Of a stretch of 64,000 nt of DNA, positions 20,009 through 53,180 are shown piece by piece. Positions within the stretch are counted from its first letter, which is position 1; each line of letters starts with the position of its first letter. The position numbers were made by a program, and so were the translations under genes. Below the pieces are notes generated by a model, which was not told the DNA's origin, made no database searches, and saw only the letters and a list, made by a program, of their open reading frames with translations. The stretch spans positions 2,141,234 through 2,205,233 of the forward strand of contig CP000070.1 in the NCBI GenBank assembly GCA_000002445.1, written 5' to 3'. The DNA is from Trypanosoma brucei (lineage: Eukaryota).

Positions 20009-20023
20009 GGGGGGGGGGGGGGG
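20009..20023. repeat. G15 homopolymer inside the divergent strand-switch region
   Basis: Direct reading of the sequence. Confidence 0.9.
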
Positions 20024-20591
20024 CCGTATCCGTTGCGGAGCTTTGTCGTTTTAGAGAGTTTTGGGTTCTAGTGTCGTGCAACATTAGCGAGTTGACTCCC
20101 CACCTCCATTGCAGGTTGTACCGCTTCCTTTTTGTTGACCAAATAAATGTGATTTTCTGCTTGTTCGTAGCTGGGCGCCGTCATCTGGATGCGAAAATGA
20201 TTTAAGTACCGTCCGTTGTGTTGATGTGTCCTGCTGCATGCAGATGTGACGGAGGTTGCCGATATGGCGAAGTCTAAACACCTTTTGGCTGCAGAAATGC
20301 TGTAACAGTTGCGCATGGCGCCGGTGGGTCGGTGCCGGTGCTTTCCGGGAGTAGCTGCCGTGCCATAGAGTGCAGAAGTTTCCGATTTGGCGATTCTGCT
20401 CGGTTAAATTCGCTTGTTTACTTTCCCAAGCTATCGCCTTTGACTTTGAACGAAGAGGGGGAGGTACTTGCCCCTTAGAAACCGTGGCAGCGTCAGGTGC
20501 AGAGGTTTGTTATGGGCGTTTGAGACGGGGGCTGCTTGCAGTGACTGAACAGAGTGTGAGCCAACATGTTTGCTTGATAACGAAAACCCTC

Positions 20592-20613
20592 TTTTTTTTT
20601 TTAGGGGGGGGGG
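20592..20613. repeat. T11-a-G10 compound homopolymer
   Basis: Direct reading of the sequence. Confidence 0.9.
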
Positions 20614-23600: not shown

Positions 23601-24004
23601 TATCAGGGGTGAACGGCAGGCAAAAGGTGCGCTTTAGTGACATTTGTGCACTTCAACATTCTGTCAGGGACTGCGTTTTCTTTCCTTTGCATGCGGAAGC
23701 CGTGAAGTGGAAGTGGACTCGGTACTACGATAAGGCTAAGCTTGAAGGGCTCACCAAGACTCACTTCCTTCCCCCGCTATCGGAAAGTACTCGTTGGCGT
23801 GGCGCATCAAGCAGGTGTTCACTTTCTTACCAAAAGTAGTAGTAAAATGCGGGTGGTGGCTGAGGGTGTTGTCAAATTTGAAGTACCAACCCGATGAACC
23901 GTTCTAGGGTGCAAACACAAGCTAAGCACTTCGATTTAGGAATTTCATTTGCACTTCACTTCAATTACTGTTACCGATTGGTCTGTATGCGCATAGCCCC
24001 ACTA

Positions 24005-35808: not shown

Positions 35809-38800
35809 TAATTTTTGCTACAATGCTTTTCCTTCACGGAAGATGTGGATGCTATATTATTAAAGAAACTTGTGGGGAGAGAATGTGGTATAGGTGTGTT
35901 TAATTCCTCTGCGTTTTTGGTGCTTCTTTGCATGATCTTTTTTTTTTATTATCAAAGCGCCAACGTTGTAATAGGGGTTATAAAATAAACTCCTCATCTT
36001 TATTACACCTCACAGAAATGCGATTTAATATTGTTAGTCCCTTATTCCTCGGAGGAATGGAATGTCACGGTATCGCAATTTATGATTTTATATGTTGAAT
36101 CCTTCAACGTGCTAACACTATCATTCTCTTCACTTACTTGAACGAAAAGGGCTCTCAGGAACAAGAAGCGACCGTTTCTTTACGCGATACGGGTTTTGAC
36201 ATGATATTGCCGCGATAAATCATATTGCAAAAATTACAGGTCTCCAATATGTCGCAGTCTAAATAAACAGACTTTAATTACGCTGATGAATGTAGCAAGA
36301 GAAATTGAGTGAGAATGCGTGTTGGCTTTGCATCGCGGCATTATAAGTATTACGCATCCGCGTTGGCAGAAATTAGTGCACGCACAGAGCACCTTGGCCA
36401 GCAAGTAGCGGTGACAAATTTGGGTCGATGACTGTTGGACGTGATGATCTTGCGCCTACAGAAGATTGTGCCGAGAAGCGAGATCAAATAAGCGAGTCCC
36501 TTAACAAAAGGTCGGAATGGCTCAGATTATTACTTTTCGTCCGGATTGGAAGGAGTGTGTGGTTTTTGCGTTTGGTGTGGATTACGACAAGTCGTCGGGT
36601 GGAGATCCCGGCACCGATACGGAAGCATTTCCAATGGAACAGGGACAGTGTAGCGCTCCTCGATTGGTTGGTGACACCCAAGACAGCCAAGTCCAATTCA
36701 CACCGAGCAGGTCGTTAAGTTCGCATTCGGGGATTAGGACGCTCTCGATATTACGCGACTACTCTCCACTTTGAAGTTCAAGGAACATGTAACAACGCTC
36801 ACAACAACCAAAGTCGAACGTATTCTGACTTCATGGGAGGTGATGACGCACCCCGTTAGAAGAGGGGCCTTTACAGCATGCTGCAGCCACAATTTGTGGA
36901 AGAACATAGCATGGATCCTCACATTATTCCCCAACTGATTAAGCACATCTATCCGTTCCACTTGCCGAGGAACACTGTCAGCCACTTGGATAAATACACC
37001 GCCATGTTGACTAATATGTAGAATATAGTCTCTATGATGTAACCCATGTCTTAGATGAAGGATAAGAGCCATGGGAGCCGCCAGGGCGTTGTCCCTTCAA
37101 GACGCACGGTTATACGATAACAAGGAGGGCGCACGCCACACGCCTGTTGAATACGCAGGACAAGGCTTCCATTCCTTTACAGCAAGTGCACGTCCCGCTG
37201 CTGGAGATATATTGAATCATTTCTCGCTTAAATTCGAGTGTGGAATGTAGATTTCAACATCTCTGGGGACTGATCGGACTGAGACCAAAAGGGACCAGTG
37301 AAAGGAGCCCTCAGGTTATTTCCATCGGCGATGATCGTTTACTTTGGAAGGTCGGTAGCGTAAAGGATGCCTCTTCCGCACCAACAGGAGCTCGGGTCAT
37401 CCCTCTTCTCAATTGCAGAGGATAAACTCTCCAACGAGCGTCGCTGGTGAATTGCGGGGCCTCAAGAGAAATAACAAAAGCGGATGAACCTTACGAGGCA
37501 ATTGTTCCTTTTGGAACACATTTCAAAATACCTCCATGCGGTTACTATCCTGAGTTGTCGACTTTTTCTGTCTGTTTTTTTTTTATTTTTTCTTAGAGGC
37601 GTTACGTCGTCGTCTTTTGCCTCGGACAGAGAACTTGTCCCCGCTACAGAGGCCGCTTTGTTGCCACTGTCCGCACTTGGTTTAGTAAGCGGGTATTGCT
37701 TTTTTGCCTGTTTAAAAATAAGAAACGCACGGTTACACCCAATTGGGAACCCGCAGTTGATTTGGTCACAGATGGCTCTTTGAGGGGTTGTGGGTCTGGG
37801 GCATGTCCTCTTATTGGATTCCGGTGAGGTGAAAATAATGTTATGTGGTGTAGTTGGTTTAAGTTCCCTTTTCTTATCATGCAGGCTCAGGCCCGTGTCC
37901 TCCGACTCTCCTCAGTAGCATTCGTGGAATCCTTTCCCCCTGAGTATTGACATTTGGGTTGATAATACATTCCTGTAAGGCGCGGAAACAAAAGGAAACA
38001 CAAAAGCCTACGGTCTTTCCGTGGCCATGGATGAGATGTTTATGATATTTGGTTCCCACAACATTAGCACAAATTACTCGTTTAACCGCTCCGTCAGCAA
38101 ACCGGCGGTCGGCTCCCGCGGAGGCACACGGTTTAACTGTGCAAAGTTAGTGAAAGAGTGCAACTTACAAAAGGAAGTGGCGGTGTCCCGAGGCTTTTGG
38201 GGACCACATGAACTGCCCTTTCACAAGTCTACTGTGAAATAAATATTCCGCTGCTGCTTGCCACCTAAGTTTGTGTCAGATGGGTATTGATGATTATAGA
38301 TTTAGTTTGCAACTCCTTGTTCCCCTCTATTTCATTTTCTTCCTCCATACATTAAGAGATCAAACAACTCCGAAATCCATATTCTCATCAACATTATTGT
38401 CTGTACGGTGGTTCTGTGAAGTTTTTCACTTCTAATGTGTTGTTACCAGTTGCGTTCATACACCTAAGATGTGTACGTTAAGAAGGTGAAGCGTGTGAAG
38501 TGGACGTTGCCACAAAGTAAAACTATCATCTGGTGCTGATTCAACGTGTTTGCTTCAATCCCTTTTTACATCTCCCCTGTGGATATTTTGGTTTGTGAGA
38601 GGTATCTCTCAAATGAAACTGCTGCCGACAACTATTTGCAACATCTAATACCTGTGCATAGCTTCCTGCATGTTTCCGTATGCTTCTTGTAACTTTCCTC
38701 ATATTCCCTCGTACCCGTTCTCTCTCTTTTACCTTTAGACAACCAAGGAATATGAAGCTGAGCAATGTCTGCCATGCTGTTGTCAGTTGAATGTTAACTG

Positions 38801-39161
38801 TGACTGCTAGTGTGCTTTGTTTTTGTTACTGGAATCCAGTCTATGATATTATAATGCTCCATTTACGCATTTACTCTTATGCCTAGTGATGTTTTATGTT
38901 TTTATATCGGATACATGAATGATGTGTGTGTGTGGGAATGTGTGTTGAACTACTTTCACACTGTTGTGGTTTGTATAATGTTATCCACTACAGTAGTTCC
39001 CTTTCCTACACTCTTATATACAATTATCATATGGAGTCTTATTGTGCCACAATCCAACATATCTGTACATATGCAGTCTATTAATCCTGCACCAATACTT
39101 TGTTATTATGCCGTTTTTGTCCTGTAGTTTGAAAGTTGAATTACGTTGAGTTACCAGTATT

Positions 39162-42100
39162 ATGGTTATCTTCATGCGTGAATTGTATGTTAGGGATGGC
39201 GTAGTCACTTGCGTAGTGTTTTCTTTGTTACTACAGGTGCTGACTGCATCATCACTTGCAAGTGGTGAAATACAGGTAAAGGTATACAACATGTTATACA
39301 GTGGCAAGATTTCAGCAAAGGTATATGATCCTATTACTGCAGGCTTCAACGCATCTCTTACCAACGGAAAGTCGCCTTCAGGTGGTAAAGTGACAGTCAT
39401 ATATGTTCCACCTAAGAATGATTCAGATTATGTTGAACATCTGGAGAAAAACATGTCATTTGGCAATAACAACGAAATATCTGTTGTGCTGGGACCTGTG
39501 GGTGACAAAAACACTCTCAACTTAACCGAATATTTCAAAGAAAAAAAGGTGATTGGTTTCTCACCCTTCACAGGATCCAGTAAGGTACGCAGTTGGAATC
39601 CTAATCTGTACTTCCTGACGGCATCACCCGCTGCTGAGATGCTTGCTCTTCTCCGTTATGCTATCACTCAGTTACGGTTACATCGACTGGGTTTCATGTA
39701 CTTGAAAAATGTTTCTTATGGTGATGATGAATATGAACTTGCTGTGGAATTGACAACAAGGATGGATCGCAAACTGTGTGGTGTTTTTGCATTGAATAGT
39801 CAACTTCGTGAGGAATCGGATGTTAGTACCTTCACTGCGGAATGGGATAGGTTTGCCGATACTCGACCCCAGGGTGTGATTGTATTTGGCTCTCCAATCC
39901 CTGATACGAAGAGATTCCTGGTGAAATCATTAGAAGATGAAAGGACAAAAAATGGATATTTGCTCATACCCTCTACACTCCAATATGTGATCGACAACAA
40001 GTGGTCAGAAGAATTGAATAGGAGCAAATTTCCAGCCGATAAGACAATAATAACAGGGACTAATCCACTTGCGAAGGATGATGGCTATGATGCAATTAAA
40101 CGTTTTAACAGAGAAATGGCTAAGTTCCTGGAGGACAACAAAAATAATTTTTCGCATGACAAATGGAATGTTACCCTAGATGTTAACGAAAATAACTTCA
40201 CCGAGCAAGACACTGATGCTGAGCTGATGGTGAGTGGATGGATTGCTGGAGAGGTATTGAAGCAAGCAGTGAGCTGTCGCGAATGGCTAACTAACAGGGA
40301 TGTATTTATGAAATCACTTTACAATCAGCGTCGTTATGTAATTGATGATCTTGTGGTTGGTGACTTTGGTGGTGAGTGCCAAGGCATGGCGGGTGAGCGA
40401 GGTGCATCATGTTTATGTAACCAAGGTGGGAATGTGGTGTACATGAAGAAGATAGGAAAGGATCATCGGCTACATCCCATGAAGGAAGGTGCATTAACTC
40501 TTACTTCATCTCGCTGTTATCGAGACCTGTCACAGCTGTACGCCCCATTGAGTGGCATCGTGTTTAATATAACTGACAACCCTAAGGTGCTGCGGACTGC
40601 AGAGGCAATATACGATGGTGCCTCTTATGTTGTTGGAAAGGGTCAACTGGGTCACTCTGATAGATTCTTTTTGCACTGGCTATCCTCGGAATCTCATGAT
40701 ACTTCTACAACTCTGTATGATGAAGTGAAGGAGCGAGTTGTAACTGCTGTGTTTGGTGTTGTGGATGATTCGTTACTGCGGACGAAGGGTATGACATTCA
40801 TCGATCCTATAATACTCACACCACAGCTGAGTGACCCCAGAAGGAATGTGATTCACCTGTCACCAACACTTGAGCAGCAACTATTCGTGATAGCTGAGCA
40901 TATCATACAAAATGGTACAGGAAAGATGCACGCCATTGTGCGTGGTGGTGATGCGAAAGGCATTGGCGATATGCTGAACAAAACCCTTGACTACTTTTTC
41001 GGTTCACTAAGCTCTCTTTCTGCGATTGGTGAGGGTTCTATTTTGAGAGACAAGCTACCGACTGCAGGTGAGGTGTTAGTTGCAGGTCTCACCTCAGATG
41101 ATATTCCAATAATCCTCTCTCACCTTGGCAAACACCATAAGGTGCGTATCTTTGTCCCGTTCTTTGATGTTGCGTTACTCTATGATGAACTTGTGAATGC
41201 CTTCCGTGACAAGCCATTTGCTGACCGTCTGCTATTCGCGACGAATCTGCCGCATTGGAGGGATAAGAACACGGGATCCGATATGGTACGTGAGTTCCAC
41301 AATGTTGTACAGAATGAGTCGAAGTGGAAGCCATTGTCATTACTTGGATATGCCACTGCACGTGCAATGATAAATGTGCTGCAACGTATGGGACATGTAA
41401 CGCCGGAGGAGCTTGTAGACGCCATCTTCGGTCAGTCTGTCATTACAGTTGATGATATGCGATATGGTCCTTTTGAAGACAAGTGTACTAACGGAGTTTC
41501 ATCTGAAGAGAAACACTGTGCTGTGAACTATGGTGCAACGCATATTTCTGTATGGTCGATGTCACGTGTTCTGAATCCTTCCGTGTCTCCTGTAGTGAAT
41601 TCTATCACACCATCAATGAAGTATAATGAACCAAAATGGATTCGACTAATAAATAAGCATATTGGTGCTGTGGCAGCTGGCTGCATTGTTCTGTTGGCGC
41701 TGTTTGTTACGGTTCTGGCACTTATTGTAAAGGCATCACGCCGTAACGCACGTGACAATAATAATGCTCCCAAGGAACCAACAGACCCCGTAACATTAAT
41801 ATTCACTGACATCGAGAGCAGTACAGCGCAGTGGGCAGCACACCCTGAGCAAATGCCTGACCTTGTGGCAACACATCACCGTTTGATCCGCTCCCTCATC
41901 ACACGGTATGAGTGCTACGAAGTGAAAACTGTTGGAGACTCTTTTATGATCGCATGTAAAAGTCCATTCGCCGCCGTCCAACTCGCATGTGACTTGCAAC
42001 GTGATTTTCTAAACCATGACTGGAATACCACTGAGCTTGATGAATCTTACCGTGAATTCGAACGGCAGCGTGCGGAAGATGACAGTGATTACACGCCACC

Positions 42101-42893
42101 AACTGCGAGCCTGGACCCTGAGGTTTATCGGCAACTGTGGAATGGGTTGCGTGTACGTGTAGGGATTCATACTGGATTGTGTGATATTCGTCATGATGAA
42201 GTAACGAAGGGTTACGACTATTATGGACGCACATCCAACATGGCAGCACGCACGGAGAGTGTTGGTAACGGTGGTCAGGTGCTGATGACGCGCTCAACAT
42301 ACCTGTCACTGAGTGGTGAGGAGCGTGAGCAAATTGATGTAACGCCTTTGGGTGATGTGCCGCTACGTGGTGTGCCGAAGCCTGTGGAAATGTACCAGTT
42401 GAATGCTGTACCTGGCCGCAACTTTGCTGCATTACGGCTTGACCGTGAAGCTGAGGAGGAAGAAGATAATGGAACTGGTAGTATCACTAGTGAGTCAGGA
42501 TCCCTCGCACATGGTTTAACTGCCACTGCCCAACAAGTTGCTGGTTGTATTGACGCTCTGCTTGGCACATTCCCTGCTGCCCAACGACAGAAGATGCTTG
42601 CAACTTTTTGTGAGCGTTGGCGTGTTAAGAAACCCCCAGGTGTGGATAGTTGGAATGAAGCCAGTTGTCGCTCTGTTACTCGTCGGATTGCTGCGAAGGT
42701 GGGTTGTGTTATGGATTTTGGAACGAGAAATACCTCTGGTAGCGTGGCTTCCTTTGAAAGGGGTGGAAGTCTCTTCTCACCTGGAGGAGTTGCTGCTGTA
42801 ATGCTTGCCTCATCCTCAAGCTCTTCCTGCGTTGCGGGACGCTGTGGTACCGTACAATTGATTGACCCAGAAAGTGCTAGCGCCGCCAGCTAA
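39162..42893 (+). CDS. GRESAG4: Receptor-type adenylate cyclase GRESAG4, tandem copy 1, 1243 aa
   Basis: Signal peptide, large ectodomain, a TM segment (IGAVAAGCIVLLALFVTVLALIV), then a class III cyclase domain (FTDIESSTAQWA, KTVGDSFMIACKSPF, GIHTGLCDIRHDEV, YYGRTSNMAARTES). A polypyrimidine tract (39098..39124) with an AG at 39126-39127 lies 34 nt upstream of the ATG. Confidence 0.92.
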   Translation: MVIFMRELYVRDGVVTCVVFSLLLQVLTASSLASGEIQVKVYNMLYSGKISAKVYDPITAGFNASLTNGKSPSGGKVTVIYVPPKNDSDYVEHLEKNMSFGNNNEISVVLGPVGDKNTLNLTEYFKEKKVIGFSPFTGSSKVRSWNPNLYFLTASPAAEMLALLRYAITQLRLHRLGFMYLKNVSYGDDEYELAVELTTRMDRKLCGVFALNSQLREESDVSTFTAEWDRFADTRPQGVIVFGSPIPDTKRFLVKSLEDERTKNGYLLIPSTLQYVIDNKWSEELNRSKFPADKTIITGTNPLAKDDGYDAIKRFNREMAKFLEDNKNNFSHDKWNVTLDVNENNFTEQDTDAELMVSGWIAGEVLKQAVSCREWLTNRDVFMKSLYNQRRYVIDDLVVGDFGGECQGMAGERGASCLCNQGGNVVYMKKIGKDHRLHPMKEGALTLTSSRCYRDLSQLYAPLSGIVFNITDNPKVLRTAEAIYDGASYVVGKGQLGHSDRFFLHWLSSESHDTSTTLYDEVKERVVTAVFGVVDDSLLRTKGMTFIDPIILTPQLSDPRRNVIHLSPTLEQQLFVIAEHIIQNGTGKMHAIVRGGDAKGIGDMLNKTLDYFFGSLSSLSAIGEGSILRDKLPTAGEVLVAGLTSDDIPIILSHLGKHHKVRIFVPFFDVALLYDELVNAFRDKPFADRLLFATNLPHWRDKNTGSDMVREFHNVVQNESKWKPLSLLGYATARAMINVLQRMGHVTPEELVDAIFGQSVITVDDMRYGPFEDKCTNGVSSEEKHCAVNYGATHISVWSMSRVLNPSVSPVVNSITPSMKYNEPKWIRLINKHIGAVAAGCIVLLALFVTVLALIVKASRRNARDNNNAPKEPTDPVTLIFTDIESSTAQWAAHPEQMPDLVATHHRLIRSLITRYECYEVKTVGDSFMIACKSPFAAVQLACDLQRDFLNHDWNTTELDESYREFERQRAEDDSDYTPPTASLDPEVYRQLWNGLRVRVGIHTGLCDIRHDEVTKGYDYYGRTSNMAARTESVGNGGQVLMTRSTYLSLSGEEREQIDVTPLGDVPLRGVPKPVEMYQLNAVPGRNFAALRLDREAEEEEDNGTGSITSESGSLAHGLTATAQQVAGCIDALLGTFPAAQRQKMLATFCERWRVKKPPGVDSWNEASCRSVTRRIAAKVGCVMDFGTRNTSGSVASFERGGSLFSPGGVAAVMLASSSSSSCVAGRCGTVQLIDPESASAAS

Positions 42894-45800
42894 TATTCCC
42901 CGTACCATTGCTGTATTTGCGCTTTGCTATTGAAGTGAATGAATAAGTTGTTTTACATGACGTTTGCAAGTTTTTATTTAGATTCATTTCGTATAAAGTG
43001 ACCATTATAACTTTCCCTCCCCATTCTTGTGCATGCAATGATCTCCTCATACGGTAGATGCTTTAAATACCTTTGTACATGAAGATGCTTTTTGTTTCTG
43101 ACATGGCTACTCTACTTTTGATAACTGTATTTGAAGATCGTAAATTTTCTTTTAATTCGTATGTTGAGGGATGGAAACGCACATGTTACTATTTTACATT
43201 CTGTTTCTTTTCGTCAGTGTTAATTATTCCATTAATTTTTCAAAAAGTCGTGGAGATAATGTGGACGAGAGGTGTTTAATTCTCACTGGCTCTTCTCACT
43301 TCATTTTCTTCATATGGTCTTTGTTTGACTGATGGAGACAGTCGTGACGTTGTAATAGGGGTTATAAAATAAACTCCTCATCTTTATTACACCTCACAGA
43401 AATGCCATTTAATATTGTTAGTCCCTTATTCCTCGGAGGAATGGAATGTCACGGTATCGCAATTTATGATTTTATATGTTGAATCCTTCAACGTGCTAAC
43501 ACTATCATTCTCTTCACTTACTTGAACGAAAAGGGCTCTCAGGAACAAGAAGCGACTGTTTCTTTACGCGATACGGGCTTTGACATGATATTGTCGCGAT
43601 AAATCATATTGCAAAAATTACAGGTCTCCAATATGTCGCAGTCTAAATAAACAGACTTTAATTACGCTGATGAATGTAGCAAGAGAAATTGAGTGAGAAT
43701 GCGTGTTGGCTTTGCATCGCGGCATTATGAATAAGTATTACGCATCCGCGTTGGCAGAAATTAGTGCACGCACAGAGCACCTTGGCCAGCAAGTAGCGGT
43801 GACAAATTTGGGTCGATGACTGTTGGACGTGATGATCTTGCGCCTACAGAAGATTGTGCCGAGAAGCGAGATCAAATAAGCGAGTCCCTTAACAAAAGGT
43901 CGGAATGGCTCAGATTATTACTTTTCGTCCGGATTGGAAGGAGTGTGTGGTTTTTGCGTTTGGTGTGGATTACGACAAGTCGCCGGGTGGAGATCCCGGC
44001 ACCGATACGGAAGCATTTCCAATGGAACAGGGACAGTGTAGCGCTCCTCGATTGGTTGGTGACACCCAAGACAGCCAAGTCCAATTCACACCGAGCAGGT
44101 CGTTAAGTTCGCATTCGGGGATTAGGACGCTCTCGATATTACGCGACTACTCTCCACTTTGAAGTTCAAGGAACATGTAACAACGCTCACAACAACCAAA
44201 GTCGAACGTATTCTGACTTCATGGGAGGTGATGACGCACCCCGTTAGAAGAGGGGCCTTTACAGCATGCTGCAGCCACAATTTGTGGAAGAACATAGCAT
44301 GGATCCTCACATTATTCCCCAACTGATTAAGCACATCTATCCGTTCCACTTGCCGAGGAACACTGTCAGCCACTTGGATAAATACACCGCCATGTTGACT
44401 AATATGTAGAATATATTCTCTATGATGTAACCCATGTCTTAGATGAAGGATAAGAGCCATGGGAGCCGCCAGGGCGTTGTCCCTTCAAGACGCACGGTTA
44501 TACGATAACAAGGAGGGCGCACGCCACACGCCTGTTGAATACGCAGGACAAGGCTTCCATTCCTTTACAGCAAGTGCACGTCCCGCTGCTGGAGATATAT
44601 TGAATCATTTCTCGCTTAAATTCGAGTGTGGAATGTAGATTTCAACATCTCTGGGGACTGATCGGACTGAGACCAAAAGGGACCAGTGAAAGGAGCCCTC
44701 AGGTTATTTCCATCGGCGATGATCGTTTACTTTGGAAGGTCGGTAGCGTAAAGGATGCCTCTTCCGCACCAACAGGAGCTCGGGTCATCCCTTTTCTCAA
44801 TTGCAGAGGATAAACTCTCCAACGAGCGTCGCTGGTGAATTGCGGGGCCTCAAGAGAAATAACAAAAGCGGATGAACCTTACGAGGCAATTGTTCCTTTT
44901 GGAACACATTTCAAAATACCTTCATGCGGTTACTATCCTGAGTTGTCGACTTTTTCTGTCTGTTTTTTTTTTATTTTTTCTTAGAGGCGTTACGTCGTCG
45001 TCTTTTGCCTCGGACAGAGAACTTGTCCCCGCTACAGAGGCCGCTTTGTTGCCACTGTCCGCACTTGGTTTAGTAAGCGGGTATTGCTTTTTTGCCTGTT
45101 TAAAAATAAGAAACGCACGGTTACACCCAATTGGGAACCCGCAGTTGATTTGGTCACAGATGGCTCTTTGAGGGGTTGTGGGTCTGGGGCATGTCCTCTT
45201 ATTGGATTCCGGTGAGGTGAAAATAACGTTATGTGGTGTAGTTGGTTTAAGTTCCCTTTTCTTATCATGCAGGCTCAGGCCCGTGTCCTCCGACTCTCCT
45301 CAGTAGCATTCGTGGAATCCTTTCCCCCTGAGTATTGACATTTGGGTTGATAATACATTCCTGTAAGGCGCGGAAACAAAAGGAAACACAAAAGCCTACG
45401 GTCTTTCCGTGGCCATGGATGAGATGTTTATGATATTTGATTCCCACAACATTGGCACAAATTACTCGTTTAACCGCTCCGTCAGCAAACCGGCGGTCGG
45501 CTCCCGCGGAGGCACACGGTTTAACTGTGCAAAGTTAGTGAAAGAGTGTAACTTACAAAAGGAAGTGGCGGTGTCCCGAGGCTTTTGGGGACCACATGAA
45601 CTGCCCTTTCACAAGTCTACTGTGAAATAAATATTCCGCTGCTGCTTGCCACCTAAGTTTGTGTCAGATGGGTATTGATGATTATAGATTTAGTTTGCAA
45701 CTCCTTGTTCCCCTCTATTTCATTTTCTTCCTCCATACATTAAGAGATCAAACAACTCCGAAATCCATATTCTCAACAACATTATTGTCTGTACGGTGGT

Positions 45801-46549
45801 TCTGTGAAGTTTTTCACTTCTAATGTGTTGTTACCAGTTGCGTTCATACACCTAAGATGTGTACGTTAAGAAGGTGCAGCGTGTGAAGTGGAGGTTGCCA
45901 CAAAGTAAAACTATCATCTGGTGCTGATTCAACGTGTTTGCTTCAATCCCTTTTTACATCTCCCCTGTGGATATTTTGGTTTGTGGGAGGTATCTCTCAA
46001 ATGAAACTGCTGCCGACAACTATTTGCAACATCTAATACCTGTGCATAGCTTCCTGCATGTTTCCGTATGCTTCTTGTAACTTTCCTCATATTCCCTCGT
46101 ACCCATTCTCTCTCTTTTACCTTTAGACAACCAAGGAATATGAAGCTGAGCAATGTCTGCCATGCTGTTGTCAGTTGAATGTTAACTGTGACTGCTAGTG
46201 TGCTTTGTTTTTGTTACTGGAATCCAGTCTATGATATTATAATGCTCCATTTACGCATTTACTCTTATGCCTAGTGATGTTTTATGTTTTTATATCGGAT
46301 ACATGAATGATGTGTGTGTGTGGGAATGTGTGTTGAATTACTTTCACACTGTTGTGGTTTGTATAATGTTATCCACTACAGTAGTTCCCTTTCCTACACT
46401 CTTATATACAATTATCATATGGAGTCTTATTGTGCCACAATCCAACATATCTGTACATATGCAGTCTATTAATCCTGCACCAATACTTTGTTATTATGCC
46501 GTTTTTGTCCTGTAGTTTGAAAGTTGAATTACGTTGAGTTACCAGTATT

Positions 46550-49500
46550 ATGGTTATCTTCATGCGTGAATTGTATGTTAGGGATGGCGTAGTCACCTAC
46601 GTAGTGTTTTCTTTGTTACTACAGGTGCTGACTGCATCATCACTTGCAAGTGGTGAAATACAGGTAAAGGTATACAACATGTTATACAGTGGCAAGATTT
46701 CAGCAAAGGTATTTGATCCTATTACTGCAGGCTTCAACGCATCTCTTACCAACGGAAAGTCGCCTTCAGGTGGTAAAGTGACAGTCATATATGTTCCACC
46801 TAAGAATGATTCAGATTACGTTGAACATCTTAATAAGGAACCGTCATTTGTCAACTTAAACGAAATATCTGTTGTGCTGGGACCTGTGGGTGACAAAAAC
46901 ACTCTCGACTTAACCGAATATTTCAAAGAAAAAAAGGTGATTGGTTTCTCACCCTTCACAGGATCCAGTAAGGTACGCAGTTGGAATCCTAATCTGTACT
47001 TCCTGACGGCATCACCCGCTGCTGAGATGCTTGCTCTTCTCCGTTATGCTATCACTCAGTTACGGTTACATCGACTGGGTTTCATGTACTTGAAAAATGT
47101 TTCTTATGGTGATGATGAATATGAACTTGCTGTGGAATTGACAACAAGGATGGATCGCAAACTGTGTGGTGTTTTTGCATTGAATAGTCAACTTCGTGAG
47201 GAATCGGATGTTAGTACCTTCACTGCGGAATGGGATAGGTTTGCCGATACTCGACCCCAGGGTGTGATTGTATTTGGCTCTCCAATCCCTGATACGAAGA
47301 GATTCCTAATGAAATCATTAGAAGATGAAAGGACAAAAAATGGATATTTGCTCATACCCTCTACACTCCAATATGTGATCGACAACAAGTGGTCAGAAGA
47401 ATTGAATAGGAGCAAATTTCCAGCCGATAAGACAATAATAACAGGGACTAATCCACTTGCGAAGGATGATGGCTATGATGCAATTAAACGTTTTAACAGA
47501 GAAATGGCTAAGTTCCTGGAGGACAACAAACCTAATTTTTCTCATGACAAATGGAATGTTACCCTAAATTTTGACAAAGACAACTTCACCGAGCAAGACA
47601 CTGATGCTGAGCTGATGGTGAGTGGATGGATTGCTGGAGAGGTATTGAAGCAAGCAGTGAGCTGTCGCGAATGGCTAACTAACAGGGATGTATTTATGAA
47701 ATCACTTTACAATCAGCGTCGTTATGTAATTGATGATCTTGTGGTTGGTGACTTTGGTGGTGAGTGCCAAGGCATGGCGGGTGAGCGAGGTGCATCATGT
47801 TTATGTAACCAAGGTGGGAATGTGGTGTACATGAAGAAGATAGGAAAGGATCATCGGCTACATCCCATGAAGGAAGGTGCATTAACTCTTACTTCATCTC
47901 GCTGTTATCGAGACCTGTCACAGCTGTACGCCCCATTGAGTGGCATCGTGTTTAATATAACTGACAACCCTAAGGTGCTGCGGACTGCAGAGGCAATATA
48001 CGATGGTGCCTCTTATGTTGTTGGAAAGGGTCAACTGGGTCACTCTGATAGATTCTTTTTGCACTGGCTATCCTCGGAATCTCATGATACTTCTACAACT
48101 CTGTATGATGAAGTGAAGGAGCGAGTTGTAACTGCTGTGTTTGGTGTTGTGGATGATTCGTTACTGCGGACGAAGGGTATGACATTCATCGATCCTATAA
48201 TACTCACACCACAGCTGAGTGACCCCAGAAGGAATGTGATTCACCTGTCACCAACACTTGAGCAGCAACTATTCGTGATAGCTGAGCATATCATACAAAA
48301 TGGTACAGGAAAGATGCACGCCATTGTGCGTGGTGGTGATGCGAAAGGCATTGGCGATATGCTGAACAAAACCCTTGACTACTTTTTCGGTTCACTAAGC
48401 TCTCTTTCTGCGATTGGTGAGGGTTCTATTTTGAGAGACAAGCTACCGACTGCAGGTGAGGTATTGGTTGCAGGTCTCACCTCAGATGATATTCCAATAA
48501 TCCTCTCTCACCTTGGCAAACACCATAAGGTGCGTATCTTTGTCCCGTTCTTTGATGTTGCGTTACTCTATGATGAACTTGTGAATGCCTTCCGTGACAA
48601 GCCATTTGCTGACCGTCTGCTATTCGCGACGAATCTGCCGCATTGGAGGGATAAGAACACGGGATCCGATATGGTACGTGAGTTCCACAATGTTGTACAG
48701 AATGAGTCGAAGTGGAAGCCATTGTCATTACTTGGATATGCCACTGCACGTGCAATGATAAATGTGCTGCAACGTATGGGACATGTAACGCCGGAGGAGC
48801 TTGTAGACGCCATCTTCGGTCAATCTGTCATTACAGTTGATGATATGCGATATGGTCCTTTTGAAGACAAGTGTACTAACGGAGTTTCATCTGAAGAGAA
48901 ACACTGTGCTGTGAACTATGGTGCAACGCATATTTCTGTATGGTCGATGTCACGTGTTCTGAATCCTTCCGTGTCTCCTGTAGTGAATTCTGTCACACCA
49001 TCAATGAAGTATAATGAACCAAAATGGATTCGACTAATAAATAAGCATATTGGTGCTGTGGCAGCTGGCTGCATTGTTCTGTTGGCGCTGTTTGTTACGG
49101 TTCTGGCACTTATTGTAAAGGCATCACGCCGGAACGCACGTGACAATAATAATGCTCCCAAGGAACCAACAGACCCCGTAACATTAATATTCACTGACAT
49201 CGAGAGCAGTACAGCGCAGTGGGCAGCACACCCTGAGCAAATGCCTGACCTTGTGGCAACACATCACCGTTTGATCCGCTCCCTCATCACACGGTATGAG
49301 TGCTACGAAGTGAAAACTGTTGGAGACTCTTTTATGATTGCATGTAAAAGTCCATTCGCCGCCGTCCAACTCGCATGTGACTTGCAACGTGATTTTCTAA
49401 ACCATGACTGGAATACCACTGAGCTTGATGAATCTTACCGTGAATTCGAACGGCAGCGTGCGGAAGATGACAGTGATTACACGCCACCAACTGCGAGCCT

Positions 49501-50281
49501 GGACCCTGAGGTTTATCGGCAACTGTGGAATGGGTTGCGTGTACGTGTAGGGATTCATACTGGATTGTGCGACATCCGCTACGATGAAGTGACGAAGGGT
49601 TACGACTATTATGGACGCACATCCAACATGGCAGCACGCACGGAGAGTGTTGGTAACGGTGGTCAGGTGCTGATGACGCGCTCAACATACCTGTCACTGA
49701 GTGGTGAGGAGCGTGAGCAAATTGATGTAACGCCTTTGGGTGATGTGCCGCTACGTGGTGTGCCGAAGCCTGTGGAAATGTACCAGTTGAATGCTGTACC
49801 TGGCCGCAACTTTGCTGCATTACGGCTTGACCGTGAAGCTGAGGAGGAAGAAGATAATGGAACTGGTAGTATCACTAGTGAGTCAGGATCCCTCGCACAT
49901 GGTTTAACTGCCACTGCCCAACAAGTTGCTGGTTGTATTGACGCTCTGCTTGGCACATTCCCTGCTGCCCAACGACAGAAGATGCTTGCAACTTTTTGTG
50001 AGCGTTGGCGTGTTAAGAAACCCCCAGGTGTGGATAGTTGGAATGAAGCCAGTTGTCGCTCTGTTACTCGTCGGATTGCTGCGAAGGTGGGTTGTGTTAT
50101 GGATTTTGGAACGAGAAATACCTCTGGTAGCGTGGCTTCCTTTGAAAGGGGTGGAAGTCTCTTCTCACCTGGAGGAGTTGCTGCTGTAATGCTTGCCTCA
50201 TCCTCAAGCTCTTCCTGCGTTGCGGGACGCTGTGGTACCGTACAATTGATTGACCCAGAAAGTGCTAGCGCCGCCAGCTAA
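46550..50281 (+). CDS. GRESAG4: Receptor-type adenylate cyclase GRESAG4, tandem copy 2, 1243 aa
   Basis: Same length and architecture as copy 1. It differs from copy 1 at about 20 residues clustered in three patches (aa 94-105, 326-345, and the DIR[H/Y]DEV site), plus a few singletons (C17Y, Y55F, V250M, I831V). Confidence 0.92.
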   Translation: MVIFMRELYVRDGVVTYVVFSLLLQVLTASSLASGEIQVKVYNMLYSGKISAKVFDPITAGFNASLTNGKSPSGGKVTVIYVPPKNDSDYVEHLNKEPSFVNLNEISVVLGPVGDKNTLDLTEYFKEKKVIGFSPFTGSSKVRSWNPNLYFLTASPAAEMLALLRYAITQLRLHRLGFMYLKNVSYGDDEYELAVELTTRMDRKLCGVFALNSQLREESDVSTFTAEWDRFADTRPQGVIVFGSPIPDTKRFLMKSLEDERTKNGYLLIPSTLQYVIDNKWSEELNRSKFPADKTIITGTNPLAKDDGYDAIKRFNREMAKFLEDNKPNFSHDKWNVTLNFDKDNFTEQDTDAELMVSGWIAGEVLKQAVSCREWLTNRDVFMKSLYNQRRYVIDDLVVGDFGGECQGMAGERGASCLCNQGGNVVYMKKIGKDHRLHPMKEGALTLTSSRCYRDLSQLYAPLSGIVFNITDNPKVLRTAEAIYDGASYVVGKGQLGHSDRFFLHWLSSESHDTSTTLYDEVKERVVTAVFGVVDDSLLRTKGMTFIDPIILTPQLSDPRRNVIHLSPTLEQQLFVIAEHIIQNGTGKMHAIVRGGDAKGIGDMLNKTLDYFFGSLSSLSAIGEGSILRDKLPTAGEVLVAGLTSDDIPIILSHLGKHHKVRIFVPFFDVALLYDELVNAFRDKPFADRLLFATNLPHWRDKNTGSDMVREFHNVVQNESKWKPLSLLGYATARAMINVLQRMGHVTPEELVDAIFGQSVITVDDMRYGPFEDKCTNGVSSEEKHCAVNYGATHISVWSMSRVLNPSVSPVVNSVTPSMKYNEPKWIRLINKHIGAVAAGCIVLLALFVTVLALIVKASRRNARDNNNAPKEPTDPVTLIFTDIESSTAQWAAHPEQMPDLVATHHRLIRSLITRYECYEVKTVGDSFMIACKSPFAAVQLACDLQRDFLNHDWNTTELDESYREFERQRAEDDSDYTPPTASLDPEVYRQLWNGLRVRVGIHTGLCDIRYDEVTKGYDYYGRTSNMAARTESVGNGGQVLMTRSTYLSLSGEEREQIDVTPLGDVPLRGVPKPVEMYQLNAVPGRNFAALRLDREAEEEEDNGTGSITSESGSLAHGLTATAQQVAGCIDALLGTFPAAQRQKMLATFCERWRVKKPPGVDSWNEASCRSVTRRIAAKVGCVMDFGTRNTSGSVASFERGGSLFSPGGVAAVMLASSSSSSCVAGRCGTVQLIDPESASAAS

Positions 50282-53180
50282 TATTCCCCGTACCATTGCT
50301 GTATTTGCGCTTTGCTATTGAAGTGAATGAATAAGTTGTTTTACATGACGTTTGCAAGTTTTTATTTAGATTCATTTCGTATAAAGTGACCATTATAACT
50401 TTCCCTCCCCATTCTTGTGCATGCAATGATCTCCTCATACGGTAGATGCTTTAAATACCTTTGTACATGAAGATGCTTTTTGTTTCTGACATGGCTACTC
50501 TACTTTTGATAACTGTATTTGAAGATCGTAAATTTTCTTTTAATTCGTATGTTGAGGGATGGAAACGCACATGTTACTATTTTACATTCTGTTTCTTTTC
50601 GTCAGTGTTAATTATTCCATTAATTTTTCAAAAAGTCGTGGAGATAATGTGGACGAGAGGTGTTTAATTCTCACTGGCTCTTCTCACTTCATTTTCTTCT
50701 TCATATGGTCTTTGTTTGACTGATGGAGACAGTCGTGACGTTGTAATAGGGGTTATAAAATAAACTCCTCATCTTTATTACACCTCACAGAAATGCCATT
50801 TAATATTGTTAGTCCCTTATTCCTCGGAGGAATGGAATGTCACGGTATCGCAATTTATGATTTTATATGTTGAATCCTTCAACGTGCTAACACTATCATT
50901 CTCTTCACTTACTTGAACGAAAAGGGCTCTCAGGAACAAGAAGCGACTGTTTCTTTACGCGATACGGGCTTTGACATGATATTGTCGCGATAAATCATAT
51001 TGCAAAAATTACAGGTCTCCAATATGTCGCAGTCTAAATAAACAGACTTTAATTACGCTGATGAATGTAGCAAGAGAAATTGAGTGAGAATGCGTGTTGG
51101 CTTTGCATCGCGGCATTATGAATAAGTATTACGCATCCGCGTTGGCAGAAATTAGTGCACGCACAGAGCACCTTGGCCAGCAAGTAGCGGTGACAAATTT
51201 GGGTCGATGACTGTTGGACGTGATGATCTTGCGCCTACAGAAGATTGTGCCGAGAAGCGAGATCAAATAAGCGAGTCCCTTAACAAAAGGTCGGAATGGC
51301 TCAGATTATTACTTTTCGTCCGGATTGGAAGGAGTGTGTGGTTTTTGCGTTTGGTGTGGATTACGACAAGTCGCCGGGTGGAGATCCCGGCACCGATACG
51401 GAAGCATTTCCAATGGAACAGGGACAGTGTAGCGCTCCTCGATTGGTTGGTGACACCCAAGACAGCCAAGTCCAATTCACACCGAGCAGGTCGTTAAGTT
51501 CGCATTCGGGGATTAGGACGCTCTCGATATTACGCGACTACTCTCCACTTTGAAGTTCAAGGAACATGTAACAACGCTCACAACAACCAAAGTCGAACGT
51601 ATTCTGACTTCATGGGAGGTGATGACGCACCCCGTTAGAAGAGGGGCCTTTACAGCATGCTGCAGCCACAATTTGTGGAAGAACATAGCATGGATCCTCA
51701 CATTATTCCCCAACTGATTAAGCACATCTATCCGTTCCACTTGCCGAGGAACACTGTCAGCCACTTGGATAAATACACCGCCATGTTGACTAATATGTAG
51801 AATATAGTCTCTATGATGTAACCCATGTCTTAGATGAAGGATAAGAGCCATGGGAGCCGCCAGGGCGTTGCCCCTTCAAGACGCACGGTTATACGATAAC
51901 AAGGAGGGCGCACGCCACACGCCTGTTGAATACGCAGGACAAGGCTTCCATTCCTTTACAGCAAGTGCACGTCCCGCTGCTGGAGATATATTGAATCATT
52001 TCTCGCTTAAATTCGAGTGTGGAATGTAGATTTCAACATCTCTGGGGACTGATCGGACTGAGACCAAAAGGGACCAGTGAAAGGAGCCCTCAGGTTATTT
52101 CCATCGGCGATGATCGTTTACTTTGGAAGGTCGGTAGCGTAAAGGATGCCTCTTCCGCACCAACAGGAGCTCGGGTCATCCCTTTTCTCAATTGCAGAGG
52201 ATAAACCCTCCAACGAGCGTCGCTGGTGAATTGCGGGGCCTCAAGAGAAATAACAAAAGCGGATGAACCTTACGAGGCAATTGTTCCTTTTGGAACACAT
52301 TTCAAAATACCTCCATGCGGTTACTATCCTGAGTTGTCGACTTTTTCTGTCTGTTTTTTTTTTATTTTTTCTTAGAGGCGTTACGTCGTCGTCTTTTGCC
52401 TCGGACAGAGAACTTGTCCCCGCTACAGAGGCCGCTTTGTTGCCACTGTCCGCACTTGGTTTAGTAAGCGGGTATTGCTTTTTTGCCTGTTTAAAAATAA
52501 GAAACGCACGGTTACACCCAATTGGGAACCCGCAGTTGATTTGGTCACAGATGGCTCTTTGAGGGGTTGTGGGTCTGGGGCATGTCCTCTTATTGGATTC
52601 CGGTGAGGTGAAAGTAATGTTATGTGGTGTAGTTGGTTTAAGTTCCCTTTTCTTATCATGCAGGCTCAGGCCCGTGTCCTCCGACTCTCCTCAGTAGCAT
52701 TCGTGGAATCCTTTCCCCCTGAGTATTGACATTTGGGTTGATAATACATTCCTGTAAGGCGCGGAAACAAAAGGAAACACAAAAGCCTACGGTCTTTCCG
52801 TGGCCATGGATGAGATGTTTATGATATTTGATTCCCACAACATTAGCACAAATTACTCGTTTAACCGCTCCGTCAGCAAACCGGCGGTCGGCTCCCGCGG
52901 AGGCACACGGTTTAACTGTGCAAAGTTAGTGAAAGAGTGTAACTTACAAAAGGAAGTGGCGGTGTCCCGAGGCTTTTGGGGACCACATGAACTGCCCTTT
53001 CACAAGTCTACTGTGAAATAAATATTCCGCTGCTGCTTGCCACCTAAGTTTGTGTCAGATGGGTATTGATGATTATAGATTTAGTTTGCAACTCCTTGTT
53101 CCCCTCTATTTCATTTTCTTCCTTCATACATTAAGAGATCAAACAACTCCGAAATCCATATTCTCATCAACATTATTGTC

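What the first reader, a model, noticed from the sequence alone, without database searches (positions are those of the whole stretch)
42181..42200. Gene-conversion patch: tandem copy 2 shares a 5-difference codon block with the inverted paralogue across the strand switch, while copy 1 does not
At the catalytic-domain DIR[H/Y]DEV site, copy 1 reads ggattgtgTgaTatTcgTCatgatgaagtAacg (His). Copy 2 (49569..49601) reads ggattgtgCgaCatCcgCTacgatgaagtGacg (Tyr). Within 25 nt the two copies differ by four synonymous and one nonsynonymous change, which points to a templated event rather than drift. The reverse complement of the minus-strand paralogue (about 6893..6925) is nucleotide-identical to copy 2 over this stretch. 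This suggests sequence exchange between GRESAG4 paralogues about 40 kb apart, in opposite orientation, on different polycistronic blocks. Alternatively copy 1 received the patch from an unseen donor.
Basis: seen in the sequence. Interest (0 to 1): 0.65.

Follow-up and report, generated by a model that had tools for sequence, protein, structure and literature searches.

The report
Gene-conversion patch between trypanosome cyclase paralogues
One of two nearly identical tandem adenylate-cyclase genes of Trypanosoma brucei has had about 22-34 bases overwritten with the sequence of a diverged, inverted paralogue 43 kb away, a well-supported but ordinary example of short-tract ectopic gene conversion in a multigene family.

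Summary
The window is T. b. brucei TREU927 chromosome 7. Tandem GRESAG4 cyclase genes c1 (39162-42893) and c2 (46550-50281) are 98.9% identical. They differ at 7 nt, not 5, within 22 nt (42182-42203 = 49570-49591): five synonymous changes plus CAT(His)->TAC(Tyr). The inverted paralogue c3 (6273-9890, minus strand, GRESAG4.2-type) is only ~50% identical overall and ~81% in the catalytic domain. Yet it matches c2 exactly over 112 nt spanning the patch.

Polarity is resolved. All seven closest paralogue copies (chr-4 arrays of T. b. gambiense and T. b. equiperdum) carry the c1 state, so c2 is the recipient. Recombination tests are strong: triplet run test P about 5e-10, and a GENECONV-style permutation gave 0 of 20,000.

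Flanking the patch on both sides (6936-6920 upstream, 6885 downstream), TREU927 c3 carries c1/c2-type bases that its gambiense orthologue lacks. Across the catalytic domain, 22 of 28 orthologue differences point this way. Exchange therefore probably ran in both directions.

This is short-tract, non-crossover ectopic gene conversion. The kind is known in T. brucei; this case does not appear in the papers I searched. An unseen donor elsewhere in TREU927 and haplotype or assembly effects could not be excluded. Interest is modest.

The parts
39162..42893 (+). c1: tandem copy 1, receptor-type adenylate cyclase GRESAG4 (1243 aa, XP_846372). It keeps the ancestral His/T-ending-codon state.
   Evidence: ORF. 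Pfam Peripla_BP_A-cyclase plus Guanylate_cyc. 100% identical to the TREU927 protein.
46550..50281 (+). c2: tandem copy 2 (1243 aa, XP_846373). It is 98.9% nt identical to c1 and is the recipient of the patch.
6273..9890 (-). c3: inverted paralogue (1205 aa, XP_846367), in the same 90% cluster as GRESAG4.2. It is 47.6% aa identical to c1/c2 and is the candidate donor.
49570..49591 (+). Minimal converted tract in c2: 7 c3-type bases, including His1011Tyr.
49566..49599 (+). Maximal c3-to-c2 tract if the donor was an ancestral (gambiense-like) c3. It is bounded by sites where gambiense c3 differs from c2, with junction identities of 4 and 8 nt.
49497..49608 (+). 112-nt block of exact identity between c2 and TREU927 c3. 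It is the maximal tract for either direction with present-day sequences.
42182..42203 (+). Homologous unconverted site in c1. It is identical to 7 chr-4 paralogue copies.
6894..6915 (-). Donor-type segment in c3 (native c3/GRESAG4.2-lineage Tyr codon block).
6885..6936 (-). Probable reverse tract. There are 9 differences between TREU927 c3 and its gambiense orthologue in 52 nt, and at every one TREU927 c3 equals c2. One of these is a c1/c2-specific A at 6936.
35963..53180 (+). Tandem repeat of a 7.39-kb unit: 35963-43346, 43347-50737 and a partial third unit 50738-53180. Identity is 99.2%.
17841..23893 (.). Divergent strand-switch interval. It separates the minus-strand block (c3, trans-sialidase-like) from the plus-strand block (RING, 2OG oxygenase, c1, c2).
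   Evidence: ORF orientation and Pfam hits

Best explanation
Copy c2 of the tandem GRESAG4 pair acquired a short non-crossover ectopic gene-conversion tract. The tract is at least 22 nt and at most 34-112 nt. It was templated by c3-type sequence, most simply the GRESAG4.2-type gene c3 itself, which lies 42.7 kb away in inverted orientation in the neighbouring transcription unit.

Inferred mechanism: a lesion or double-strand break arose in the conserved catalytic-core segment of c2. Homologous recombination repaired it using the about 670-nt, about 80%-identical catalytic-domain homology with c3. The heteroduplex was resolved by short-patch repair. This left six c3-type codons, five silent and one His1011Tyr.

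In the TREU927 lineage the exchange probably also ran the other way, with a c2-to-c3 tract of 52-112 nt. This would explain why both genes now carry one identical mosaic. The simplest order is two continuous tracts: first ancestral c3 into c2 (34 nt or less), then mosaic c2 into c3.

What is shown: the clustering, the polarity, the unique exact match to c3, the statistical support, and the absence of a rearrangement at c3. What is inferred: the break-and-repair mechanism, cis c3 as the actual donor, and the order and direction of the second tract.

The His-to-Tyr change is probably functionally tolerated, because both states occur in crystallised catalytic domains of this family.
For: The 7 differences in 22 nt sit in otherwise 98.9%-identical copies. 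The permutation test gave 0 of 20,000.

Polarity: three gambiense and four T. b. equiperdum chr-4 copies carry the exact c1 29-mer. The deeper chr-8 paralogue also has His and T-ending codons. His is the state in all close relatives.

Donor: c2 equals c3 over 112 nt. The c2-type 29-mer is found only at c2 and c3 in the window and in none of 9 loci. Other Tyr-bearing lineages differ by 1 nt (gambiense c3), 2 nt (L003) or 6 nt (L007).

Statistics: in the triplet c1 x c3 -> c2, 7 of the 8 c3-like sites are consecutive among 212 informative sites, P = 4.8e-10. The pairwise fragment test found 32 concordant polymorphic sites in a row, 0 of 20,000 permutations.

Reverse tract: a run of 9, P = 3.6e-8, with c2 as the best-fitting donor. 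In the catalytic domain the split is 22:4:2, against 12:15:14 in the N-terminal part. c3(927) carries c1/c2-specific alleles at 7146 and 6936. At aa 931, Arg (the c1/c2 state) replaces the Leu found in gambiense c3, GRESAG4.2 and GRESAG4.3.

No inversion: gambiense is collinear with the window through c3.

Mechanistic precedent in T. brucei: short templated insertions (about 46 bp mean), junction identity about 9 bp, about 100 bp of imperfect homology sufficient, donor position irrelevant, RAD51/BRCA2-dependent (PMC13233330). Discontinuous tracts arise by short-patch mismatch repair (PMC1904282).

Both residue states occur in solved structures: 1FX4 has Tyr and 1FX2 has His.
Against: Only three GRESAG4 genes of TREU927 (those in the window) could be read at DNA level. 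The other roughly 60-80 family members of this strain were not retrievable. An unseen paralogue with the same patch, such as a GRESAG4.3-like gene whose local peptide equals c2's, cannot be excluded as donor.

No c1/c2 orthologue from another isolate was obtained, so the event is not dated. Its presence on both haplotypes, and correct copy assignment in the assembly, are unverified.

The direction of the reverse tract rests on a single orthologue (gambiense) plus one polarised amino-acid site. The 7-site synonymous cluster itself could instead be a conversion of gambiense c3 by an unknown donor.

Position 49591 (G in c2 and c3(927), A in gambiense c3 and c1) needs one extra mutation or an ancestral polymorphism.
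Confidence: 0.85

Rival explanations
1. This is the same process but with a different donor. c2, and perhaps c3(927) too, was converted by an unseen third sequence carrying the identical mosaic. Candidates are a GRESAG4.3-like or subtelomeric paralogue elsewhere in TREU927, or the c3 allele on the homologous chromosome.
For: GRESAG4.3 has the peptide DIRYDEVTKGYDYYGRTSNMAA, identical to c2's, and c1/c2-like residues on both sides. It is c3's nearest relative. An unseen donor with the whole mosaic would explain both c2 and c3(927) without a ping-pong.
Against: No 90%-or-better relative of GRESAG4.3 from TREU927 is in the protein collection. Every other Tyr-bearing lineage that could be read differs inside the patch. 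c3 is an exact match, is on the same chromosome and is nearby. The c1/c2-specific A at 49549 in c3(927) points to direct c1/c2-c3 contact.
Confidence: 0.2
2. Polarity is reversed in two steps. The c1/c2 ancestor already carried the c3-type patch, and c1 was later back-converted by a chr-4-type paralogue.
For: Chr-4 copies are identical to c1 across the patch, so they could in principle have served as donor.
Against: It needs two conversion events instead of one. c1 keeps the c1/c2-specific bases at the nearest flanking markers (A at 42161; G at 42209, where chr-4 copies have A). A chr-4-to-c1 tract would therefore have to fit within 47 nt or less exactly around the patch. It still requires a conversion from c3 into the c1/c2 lineage.
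Confidence: 0.05
3. There was no templated event. The changes are independent point substitutions, a multi-nucleotide mutation burst, or selection for Tyr plus codon changes in c2.
For: All 7 changes are transitions, and 5 are at third codon positions.
Against: Seven changes fall in 22 nt against a background of about 0.3%. All seven land exactly on the c3 state, and five are silent, so selection on the protein cannot explain them. Run test P = 4.8e-10.
Confidence: 0.01
4. Assembly or haplotype artefact. The patch reflects mis-assignment of reads or alleles among the 99%-identical 7.4-kb repeat units, or a chimeric consensus with c3 reads.
For: The repeats are 99.2% identical and hard to assemble. 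A T. equiperdum contig breaks exactly at the repeat boundary. TREU927 is diploid.
Against: c3 is only about 80% identical outside the 112-nt block, so a c3 read could not be merged into c2. The reciprocal c1/c2-type bases in c3, a single-copy context, cannot be produced by repeat collapse. Allelic mis-assignment would change which copy or haplotype carries the patch, not the fact that a converted sequence exists.
Confidence: 0.03

Closest known systems
Ectopic gene conversion involving T. brucei tandem arrays (Jackson 2007, BMC Evol Biol 7:54; cases Tb105a and Tb32/ISG75)
   Same: A short region of significant identity (about 110 bp in Tb105a) links one tandem copy and a family member at a separate locus. 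In Tb32 the partner lies upstream on the opposite strand. Detection uses GENECONV-type criteria. The exchange is biased and partial, and creates chimaeric copies.
   Different: That survey found ectopic events 'very rare' (2 arrays) and did not analyse this chr-7 pair: no Tb927.7.74xx or 75xx identifiers appear in it. Here the partners are far more diverged (about 50% nt overall), the visible tract is only 22 nt, and there is evidence for exchange in both directions.
Break-induced mosaic VSG formation (Nature 2026, PMC13233330)
   Same: Short templated insertions (mean about 46 bp) come from a diverged family member. Junctions sit in a few bp of perfect identity. About 100 bp of imperfect homology is sufficient. 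The donor can be anywhere in the genome, and there is no crossover. The c2 patch is 22-34 nt, with 4 and 8 nt junction identities if the donor was ancestral c3, inside about 670 nt of about 80% homology. It fits these parameters.
   Different: This is a core-chromosome, non-VSG gene with no antigenic selection. The event is an evolutionary footprint, not an observed repair. Dependence on a break and on RAD51/BRCA2 is untested. The paper tested whether the silent donor was altered by sequencing it after repair, and concluded a templated conversion, not a crossover; the excerpt read does not give the sequencing result. Here the putative donor c3 also appears altered.
Short-patch mismatch repair of recombination heteroduplex in T. 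brucei (Barnes & McCulloch 2007, PMC1904282)
   Same: Discontinuous donor and recipient tracts switch within a few bp. This is like the alternating c1/c2-type and c3-type segments shared by c2 and c3(927).
   Different: Those were transfected constructs with 5-11% divergence. Here the partners are chromosomal paralogues with about 20% divergence.
Concerted evolution or allelic gene conversion within GRESAG4 arrays (array Tb62, Tb927.7.6080; Jackson 2007, 2010)
   Same: Same gene family, same chromosome, with documented partial conversions among copies.
   Different: Those events occur between adjacent, highly similar array members. This one crosses a strand-switch region between distantly related subfamilies.

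Membership tests
Short-tract non-crossover ectopic (interlocus) gene conversion | Differences between otherwise near-identical copies are clustered far beyond random expectation | tested here: met
   7 of 42 differences lie in 22 nt. A cluster of 7 or more in 25 nt arose in 0 of 20,000 random placements.
Short-tract non-crossover ectopic (interlocus) gene conversion | A candidate donor at another locus is identical to the recipient across the tract, and much more similar there than elsewhere | tested here: met
   c2 equals c3 exactly over 112 nt, against about 81% in the surrounding catalytic domain and about 50% gene-wide.
Short-tract non-crossover ectopic (interlocus) gene conversion | Polarity: outgroup sequences show which copy is derived | tested here: met
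   7 of 7 chr-4 paralogue copies from two genomes, plus the chr-8 paralogue, share the c1 state.
Short-tract non-crossover ectopic (interlocus) gene conversion | Significant by recombination tests (3SEQ or GENECONV type) | tested here: met
   Run test P = 4.8e-10. Pairwise fragment permutation 0 of 20,000. These are my own implementations, not the published programs.
Short-tract non-crossover ectopic (interlocus) gene conversion | Flanking sequence and gene order are unchanged: no crossover or inversion between the inverted partners | tested here: met
   c2 is c1-like on both sides of the patch. c3 flanks are collinear with gambiense chr 7.
Short-tract non-crossover ectopic (interlocus) gene conversion | The donor is unique in the genome, with no better-matching paralogue | not testable with these tools
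   TREU927 DNA outside the window was not retrievable. Only gambiense and equiperdum paralogues were surveyed.
Short-tract non-crossover ectopic (interlocus) gene conversion | Unidirectional transfer: the donor stays unchanged | tested here: inconclusive
   TREU927 c3 differs from gambiense c3 at 9 sites in 52 nt, all matching c2. This suggests a second tract in the opposite direction. Polarity rests on one orthologue plus aa 931.
Trypanosome receptor-type adenylate cyclase (ESAG4/GRESAG4) family | Extracellular periplasmic-binding-protein-like domains plus a single class III cyclase catalytic domain | tested here: met
   Pfam PF25495, PF25493 and PF00211 in c1 and c3. E = 1e-128 to PDB 1FX4 and 1FX2. 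100% identical to annotated TREU927 GRESAG4 proteins.
Break-induced, RAD51/BRCA2-dependent mosaic formation (as shown for VSG) | Initiated by a DNA break and dependent on RAD51/BRCA2 | not testable with these tools
   This needs Cas9-break and knockout experiments. Only the footprint (tract length, junction identity, homology length) is compatible.

The most novel reading that the evidence does not exclude
The c2/c3 mosaic may be the footprint of a single reciprocal heteroduplex event, or a tight ping-pong, at a recurrent exchange hotspot in the conserved catalytic core. At least three layers are visible: an old 52-nt block shared by the GRESAG4.2 lineage and the c1/c2/chr-4 clade; c1/c2 into c3 in the TREU927 lineage; and c3 into c2. 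If so, the short-templated-patch repair recently shown for VSG mosaics would operate genome-wide. It would shuffle catalytic-domain variants between adenylate cyclases that sit in different transcription units. If the inferred gene identities are right, those cyclases are also expressed in different tsetse stages (Tb927.7.7470 midgut/procyclic versus Tb927.7.7520/7530 salivary gland, PMC5176191).
Probability: 0.2. Interest if true: 0.45.

Novelty: new member of a known kind. Interest (0 to 1): 0.3.

Why it matters
This is a clean, polarised, statistically strong natural example of short-tract ectopic gene conversion between highly diverged paralogues in the T. brucei core genome. The exchange crosses a strand-switch region and the partners are in inverted orientation. 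An earlier survey judged this class of event very rare. The tract parameters match those measured experimentally for mosaic VSG formation. That suggests the same repair outcome also shapes non-VSG surface-receptor families and helps keep cyclase catalytic domains similar while the extracellular domains diverge. It does not change current understanding. It adds one well-documented case and a testable hint of two-way exchange.

Tried and rejected
(1) DNA for the TREU927 paralogues P0002, P0021 and P0004 is not on record, so no genome-wide TREU927 survey was possible.

(2) Third c3 orthologue at DNA level. The T. equiperdum contig L004 covers only window 11285-7922 and stops before the catalytic domain. 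A second protein search with c3's C-terminal 366 aa found no orthologue fragment; the best hit was 66% identical.

(3) c1/c2 orthologue in another isolate. Look-ups through the upstream 2OG-oxygenase and the 245-aa ORF hit only a T. equiperdum contig. That contig ends at the repeat boundary, at about window 36025. By extrapolation from L002, gambiense chr 7 would end about 200 nt before the patch; this was not verified. No protein 90% or more identical to c1/c2 exists outside TREU927 in the collection.

(4) The metagenome scan for the mosaic 48-mer gave 0 hits.

(5) Donors for the other two c1/c2 difference clusters, A and B: none in any locus.

(6) tRNA genes at the strand-switch regions: none.

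(7) Rejected ideas: the patch as family consensus (one search shows His is the majority); L003 or P0043-type Tyr paralogues as donors (2 and 6 mismatches); inversion by crossover.
Full report
WHAT IS THERE

The window is from Trypanosoma brucei brucei TREU927, on a 2,205,233-bp contig that I take to be chromosome 7. ORF 39162-42893 (+), called c1, is 100% identical to XP_846372. ORF 46550-50281 (+), called c2, is XP_846373. ORF 6273-9890 (-), called c3, is XP_846367.

All three have the trypanosome receptor-type adenylate cyclase architecture: Peripla_BP_A-cyclase domains plus one Guanylate_cyc domain. c3 falls in the same 90% cluster as Swiss-Prot GRESAG 4.2.

From the spacing of accession numbers and from PMC5176191, c3 is probably Tb927.7.7470, and c1 and c2 are probably Tb927.7.7520 and 7530. 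This is inference only.

c1 and c2 lie in a 7.39-kb tandem unit present in 2.3 copies: 35963-43346, 43347-50737 and 50738-53180, at 99.2% identity.

c3 and a trans-sialidase-like gene are on the minus strand. RING, 2OG-oxygenase, c1 and c2 are on the plus strand. A divergent strand switch therefore lies between about 17.8 and 23.9 kb.

CHECK OF THE OBSERVATION

The quoted sequences are exact. c1 and c2 differ at 42 of 3732 nt. Seven of these lie in 42182-42203 (= 49570-49591). They are TGT/TGC, GAT/GAC, ATT/ATC, CGT/CGC, CAT/TAC (His1011Tyr, 2 nt) and GTA/GTG. That makes 7 nt in 6 codons, not 5, and the last difference lies 3 nt beyond the stated end coordinate.

c3 equals c2 at all seven. The exact c2-c3 match extends over 112 nt (49497-49608 = 6988-6877). 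The two genes are about 50% identical overall and 81% identical over the 673-nt catalytic-domain alignment.

A cluster of 7 or more differences in 25 nt never arose in 20,000 random placements of 42 differences. The c2-type 29-mer occurs only at c2 and c3 in the window.

POLARITY

At protein level, His is the family's majority state. It is the state of every close relative of c1/c2 (P0002-P0006). Tyr is confined to a few lineages: c3/GRESAG4.2, GRESAG4.3, P0020/21, P0043 and some T. vivax genes.

TREU927 DNA outside the window could not be fetched. The closest paralogues could be read in two other genomes:
- T. b. gambiense DAL972, chr-4 array (L001, three copies)
- T. b. equiperdum, chr-4 array (L009, four copies)

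These copies are about 86-89% nt identical to c1 overall and about 98% identical around the patch. All seven carry the exact c1 29-mer. The next outgroup, gambiense chr 8 (L008), also has His and T-ending codons.

So c1 is ancestral and c2 is the converted copy. It would also need a tract that fits within 47 nt or less between flanking markers where c1 keeps c1/c2-specific bases.

DONOR

Only TREU927 c3 matches c2 exactly. Mismatches inside the patch for the other candidates:
- gambiense c3: 1 site (49591)
- the three chr-7 internal-array copies (L003, Tyr): 2 sites
- the gambiense orthologue of P0043 (L007, Tyr): 6 sites

The c2-type 29-mer is absent from all nine loci.

STATISTICS

With c1 and c3 as parents and c2 as child, an 801-nt catalytic alignment has 212 informative sites. 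204 follow c1 and 8 follow c3, and 7 of those 8 are consecutive. The exact probability of such a run is 4.8e-10.

A GENECONV-style test found a c2-c3 fragment of 32 concordant polymorphic sites among 354. No permutation out of 20,000 equalled it.

A SECOND TRACT IN THE OPPOSITE DIRECTION

TREU927 c3 and its gambiense orthologue (L002) differ at about 2% of CDS sites. Nine of the differences fall in 52 nt (6936-6885) that straddle the patch.
- At seven sites just upstream (c2 49549-49565) and one downstream (49600), TREU927 c3 equals c1 and c2.
- At 49591 it equals c2 only.
- At 49549 it carries an A otherwise specific to c1/c2. Chr-4 copies have G; gambiense c3 and L003 have T.
- A second such allele is at 49342.

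With gambiense c3 and c2 as parents, the run of 9 has P = 3.6e-8. c2 fits better than c1 (run of 7) or a chr-4 copy (run of 6).

Across the catalytic domain, 22 of the 28 orthologue differences make TREU927 c3 look like c1/c2. Four go the other way. By my own arithmetic the two-sided binomial P is about 5e-4. In the N-terminal 2.5 kb the split is 12:15:14.

The GRESAG4.2 protein, from a third stock, sides with gambiense c3 at 8 of 10 nonsynonymous sites. At aa 931, Leu is found in gambiense c3, GRESAG4.2 and GRESAG4.3. TREU927 c3 has the c1/c2 residue Arg instead.

Most likely, then, TREU927 c3 has received c1/c2-type sequence. I could not obtain a third c3 orthologue at DNA level. The alternative, that gambiense c3 was converted by an unknown donor, therefore stays open for the synonymous cluster.

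There was no inversion. Gambiense is collinear with the window through c3.

MODEL

The simplest history uses two continuous tracts.
1. Ancestral (gambiense-like) c3 converted c2 over 34 nt or less (49566-49599). The junctions lie in 4 and 8 nt of identity.
2. The now-mosaic c2 converted c3 over 52-112 nt.

G at 49591 was either ancestral in c3, or arose between the two steps. A single event with heteroduplex on both partners and patchy repair is also possible.

A still older layer exists. The 52-nt block 49497-49548 is identical in c1, c2, all chr-4 copies and both c3 orthologues. It is not identical in the other paralogues.

The mechanism is inferred from established T. brucei biology. Break-induced, RAD51/BRCA2-dependent templated repair gives short insertions of about 46 bp on average. 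Junction identity is about 9 bp, about 100 bp of imperfect homology suffices, and the donor can be anywhere in the genome (PMC13233330). Heteroduplex is resolved by short-patch mismatch repair into discontinuous tracts (PMC1904282).

FUNCTIONAL CONSEQUENCE

The only amino-acid change is His1011Tyr in the catalytic domain. Both states occur in crystallised catalytic domains of the family: 1FX4 (GRESAG4.3) has DIRYDEV and 1FX2 (GRESAG4.1) has DIRHDEV. The change is probably tolerated. No activity data were examined.

COMPARISON WITH WHAT IS KNOWN

Gene conversion within T. brucei tandem arrays is well documented, including a chr-7 GRESAG4 array. Ectopic conversion with separated family members was judged 'very rare', with two substantiated cases. 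One of those involves a partner on the opposite strand (PMC1855330). This gene pair was not analysed there.

The present case is therefore a new member of a known kind. It is unusual only for the divergence of the partners, the shortness of the tract, and the hint of two-way exchange.

CAVEATS
- The rest of the TREU927 family was not surveyed, so an unseen donor is possible. A GRESAG4.3-like gene is a candidate, since its local peptide equals c2's.
- The event could not be dated or checked in other isolates.
- Haplotype phase and the copy assignment in the assembly are unverified.

VERDICT

c2 is the recipient and c3-type sequence is the donor (confidence about 0.85). The donor is cis c3 specifically with confidence about 0.65. 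Two-way exchange has confidence about 0.6. Interest is modest, at 0.3.

Noticed in passing
window 39431-39470 (+39519) and 46819-46858: Patch A: 14-15 c1/c2 differences in 40-89 nt of the extracellular domain, 6 of 10 affected codons nonsynonymous. The region is also hypervariable among chr-4 paralogues. No exact donor was found in any locus. It could be another conversion from an unseen paralogue, or diversifying selection.
   Followed up: partly
window 40143-40193 and 47531-47581: Patch B: 9 c1/c2 differences in 51 nt, 6 of 7 codons nonsynonymous. Derived states are split between c1 and c2 relative to the chr-4 outgroups. No donor was found.
   Followed up: partly
window 49497-49548 (= 42109-42160 = 6988-6937 minus strand): A 52-nt block is identical in c1, c2, seven chr-4 copies and both c3 orthologues, but diverged in the other paralogues (L003, L007, L008). 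This is an older layer of exchange, or extreme constraint, at the same spot (RVGIHTG core).
   Followed up: partly
window 8718-8738 and 7820-7888 (c3, minus strand): Further clusters of differences between TREU927 c3 and gambiense c3 lie outside the catalytic domain: 6 in 21 nt and 7 in 69 nt. They show no clear match to c1/c2. They may be conversions from other paralogues.
   Followed up: no
window 49310-49377 region; c1 41951: c2 and c3 share a second exact run of 68 nt. In c1 it is split into runs of 38 and 29 nt by a c1-private C at 41951. In gambiense c3 it is interrupted at 7170 and 7146, and 7146 carries a c1/c2-specific A in TREU927 c3.
   Followed up: partly
window 35963-53180; L005/L006 (T. 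equiperdum CZPT02001757.1): The tandem unit has a partial third copy (50738-53180) with no cyclase gene. The T. equiperdum contig syntenic with the upstream genes ends at about window 36025, right at the repeat boundary. This suggests the repeat exists there too but broke the assembly. By extrapolation, gambiense chr 7 (2,224,448 bp) would end inside the c1 orthologue.
   Followed up: partly
P0018, P0033 (labelled Schistosoma mansoni); P0103 (labelled Eimeria tenella): These proteins have full trypanosome-type GRESAG4 architecture and are about 48-50% identical to the window's cyclases, yet they are filed under a flatworm and an apicomplexan. They probably reflect trypanosomatid contamination in those assemblies.
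   Followed up: no
window 58499-58693 vs 59141-59335 (LRR gene 58084-61221, minus strand): There is an internal 68%-identical direct repeat within a 1045-aa leucine-rich-repeat protein gene. This gene lies on the minus strand, so a convergent strand switch falls between the cyclase array and it.
   Followed up: no
L002 about 8979-9358 (gambiense chr 7), = window 10523-10890: The gambiense assembly has a run of N (a gap) just upstream of the c3 orthologue, so the 5' flank of c3 cannot be compared there.
   Followed up: no
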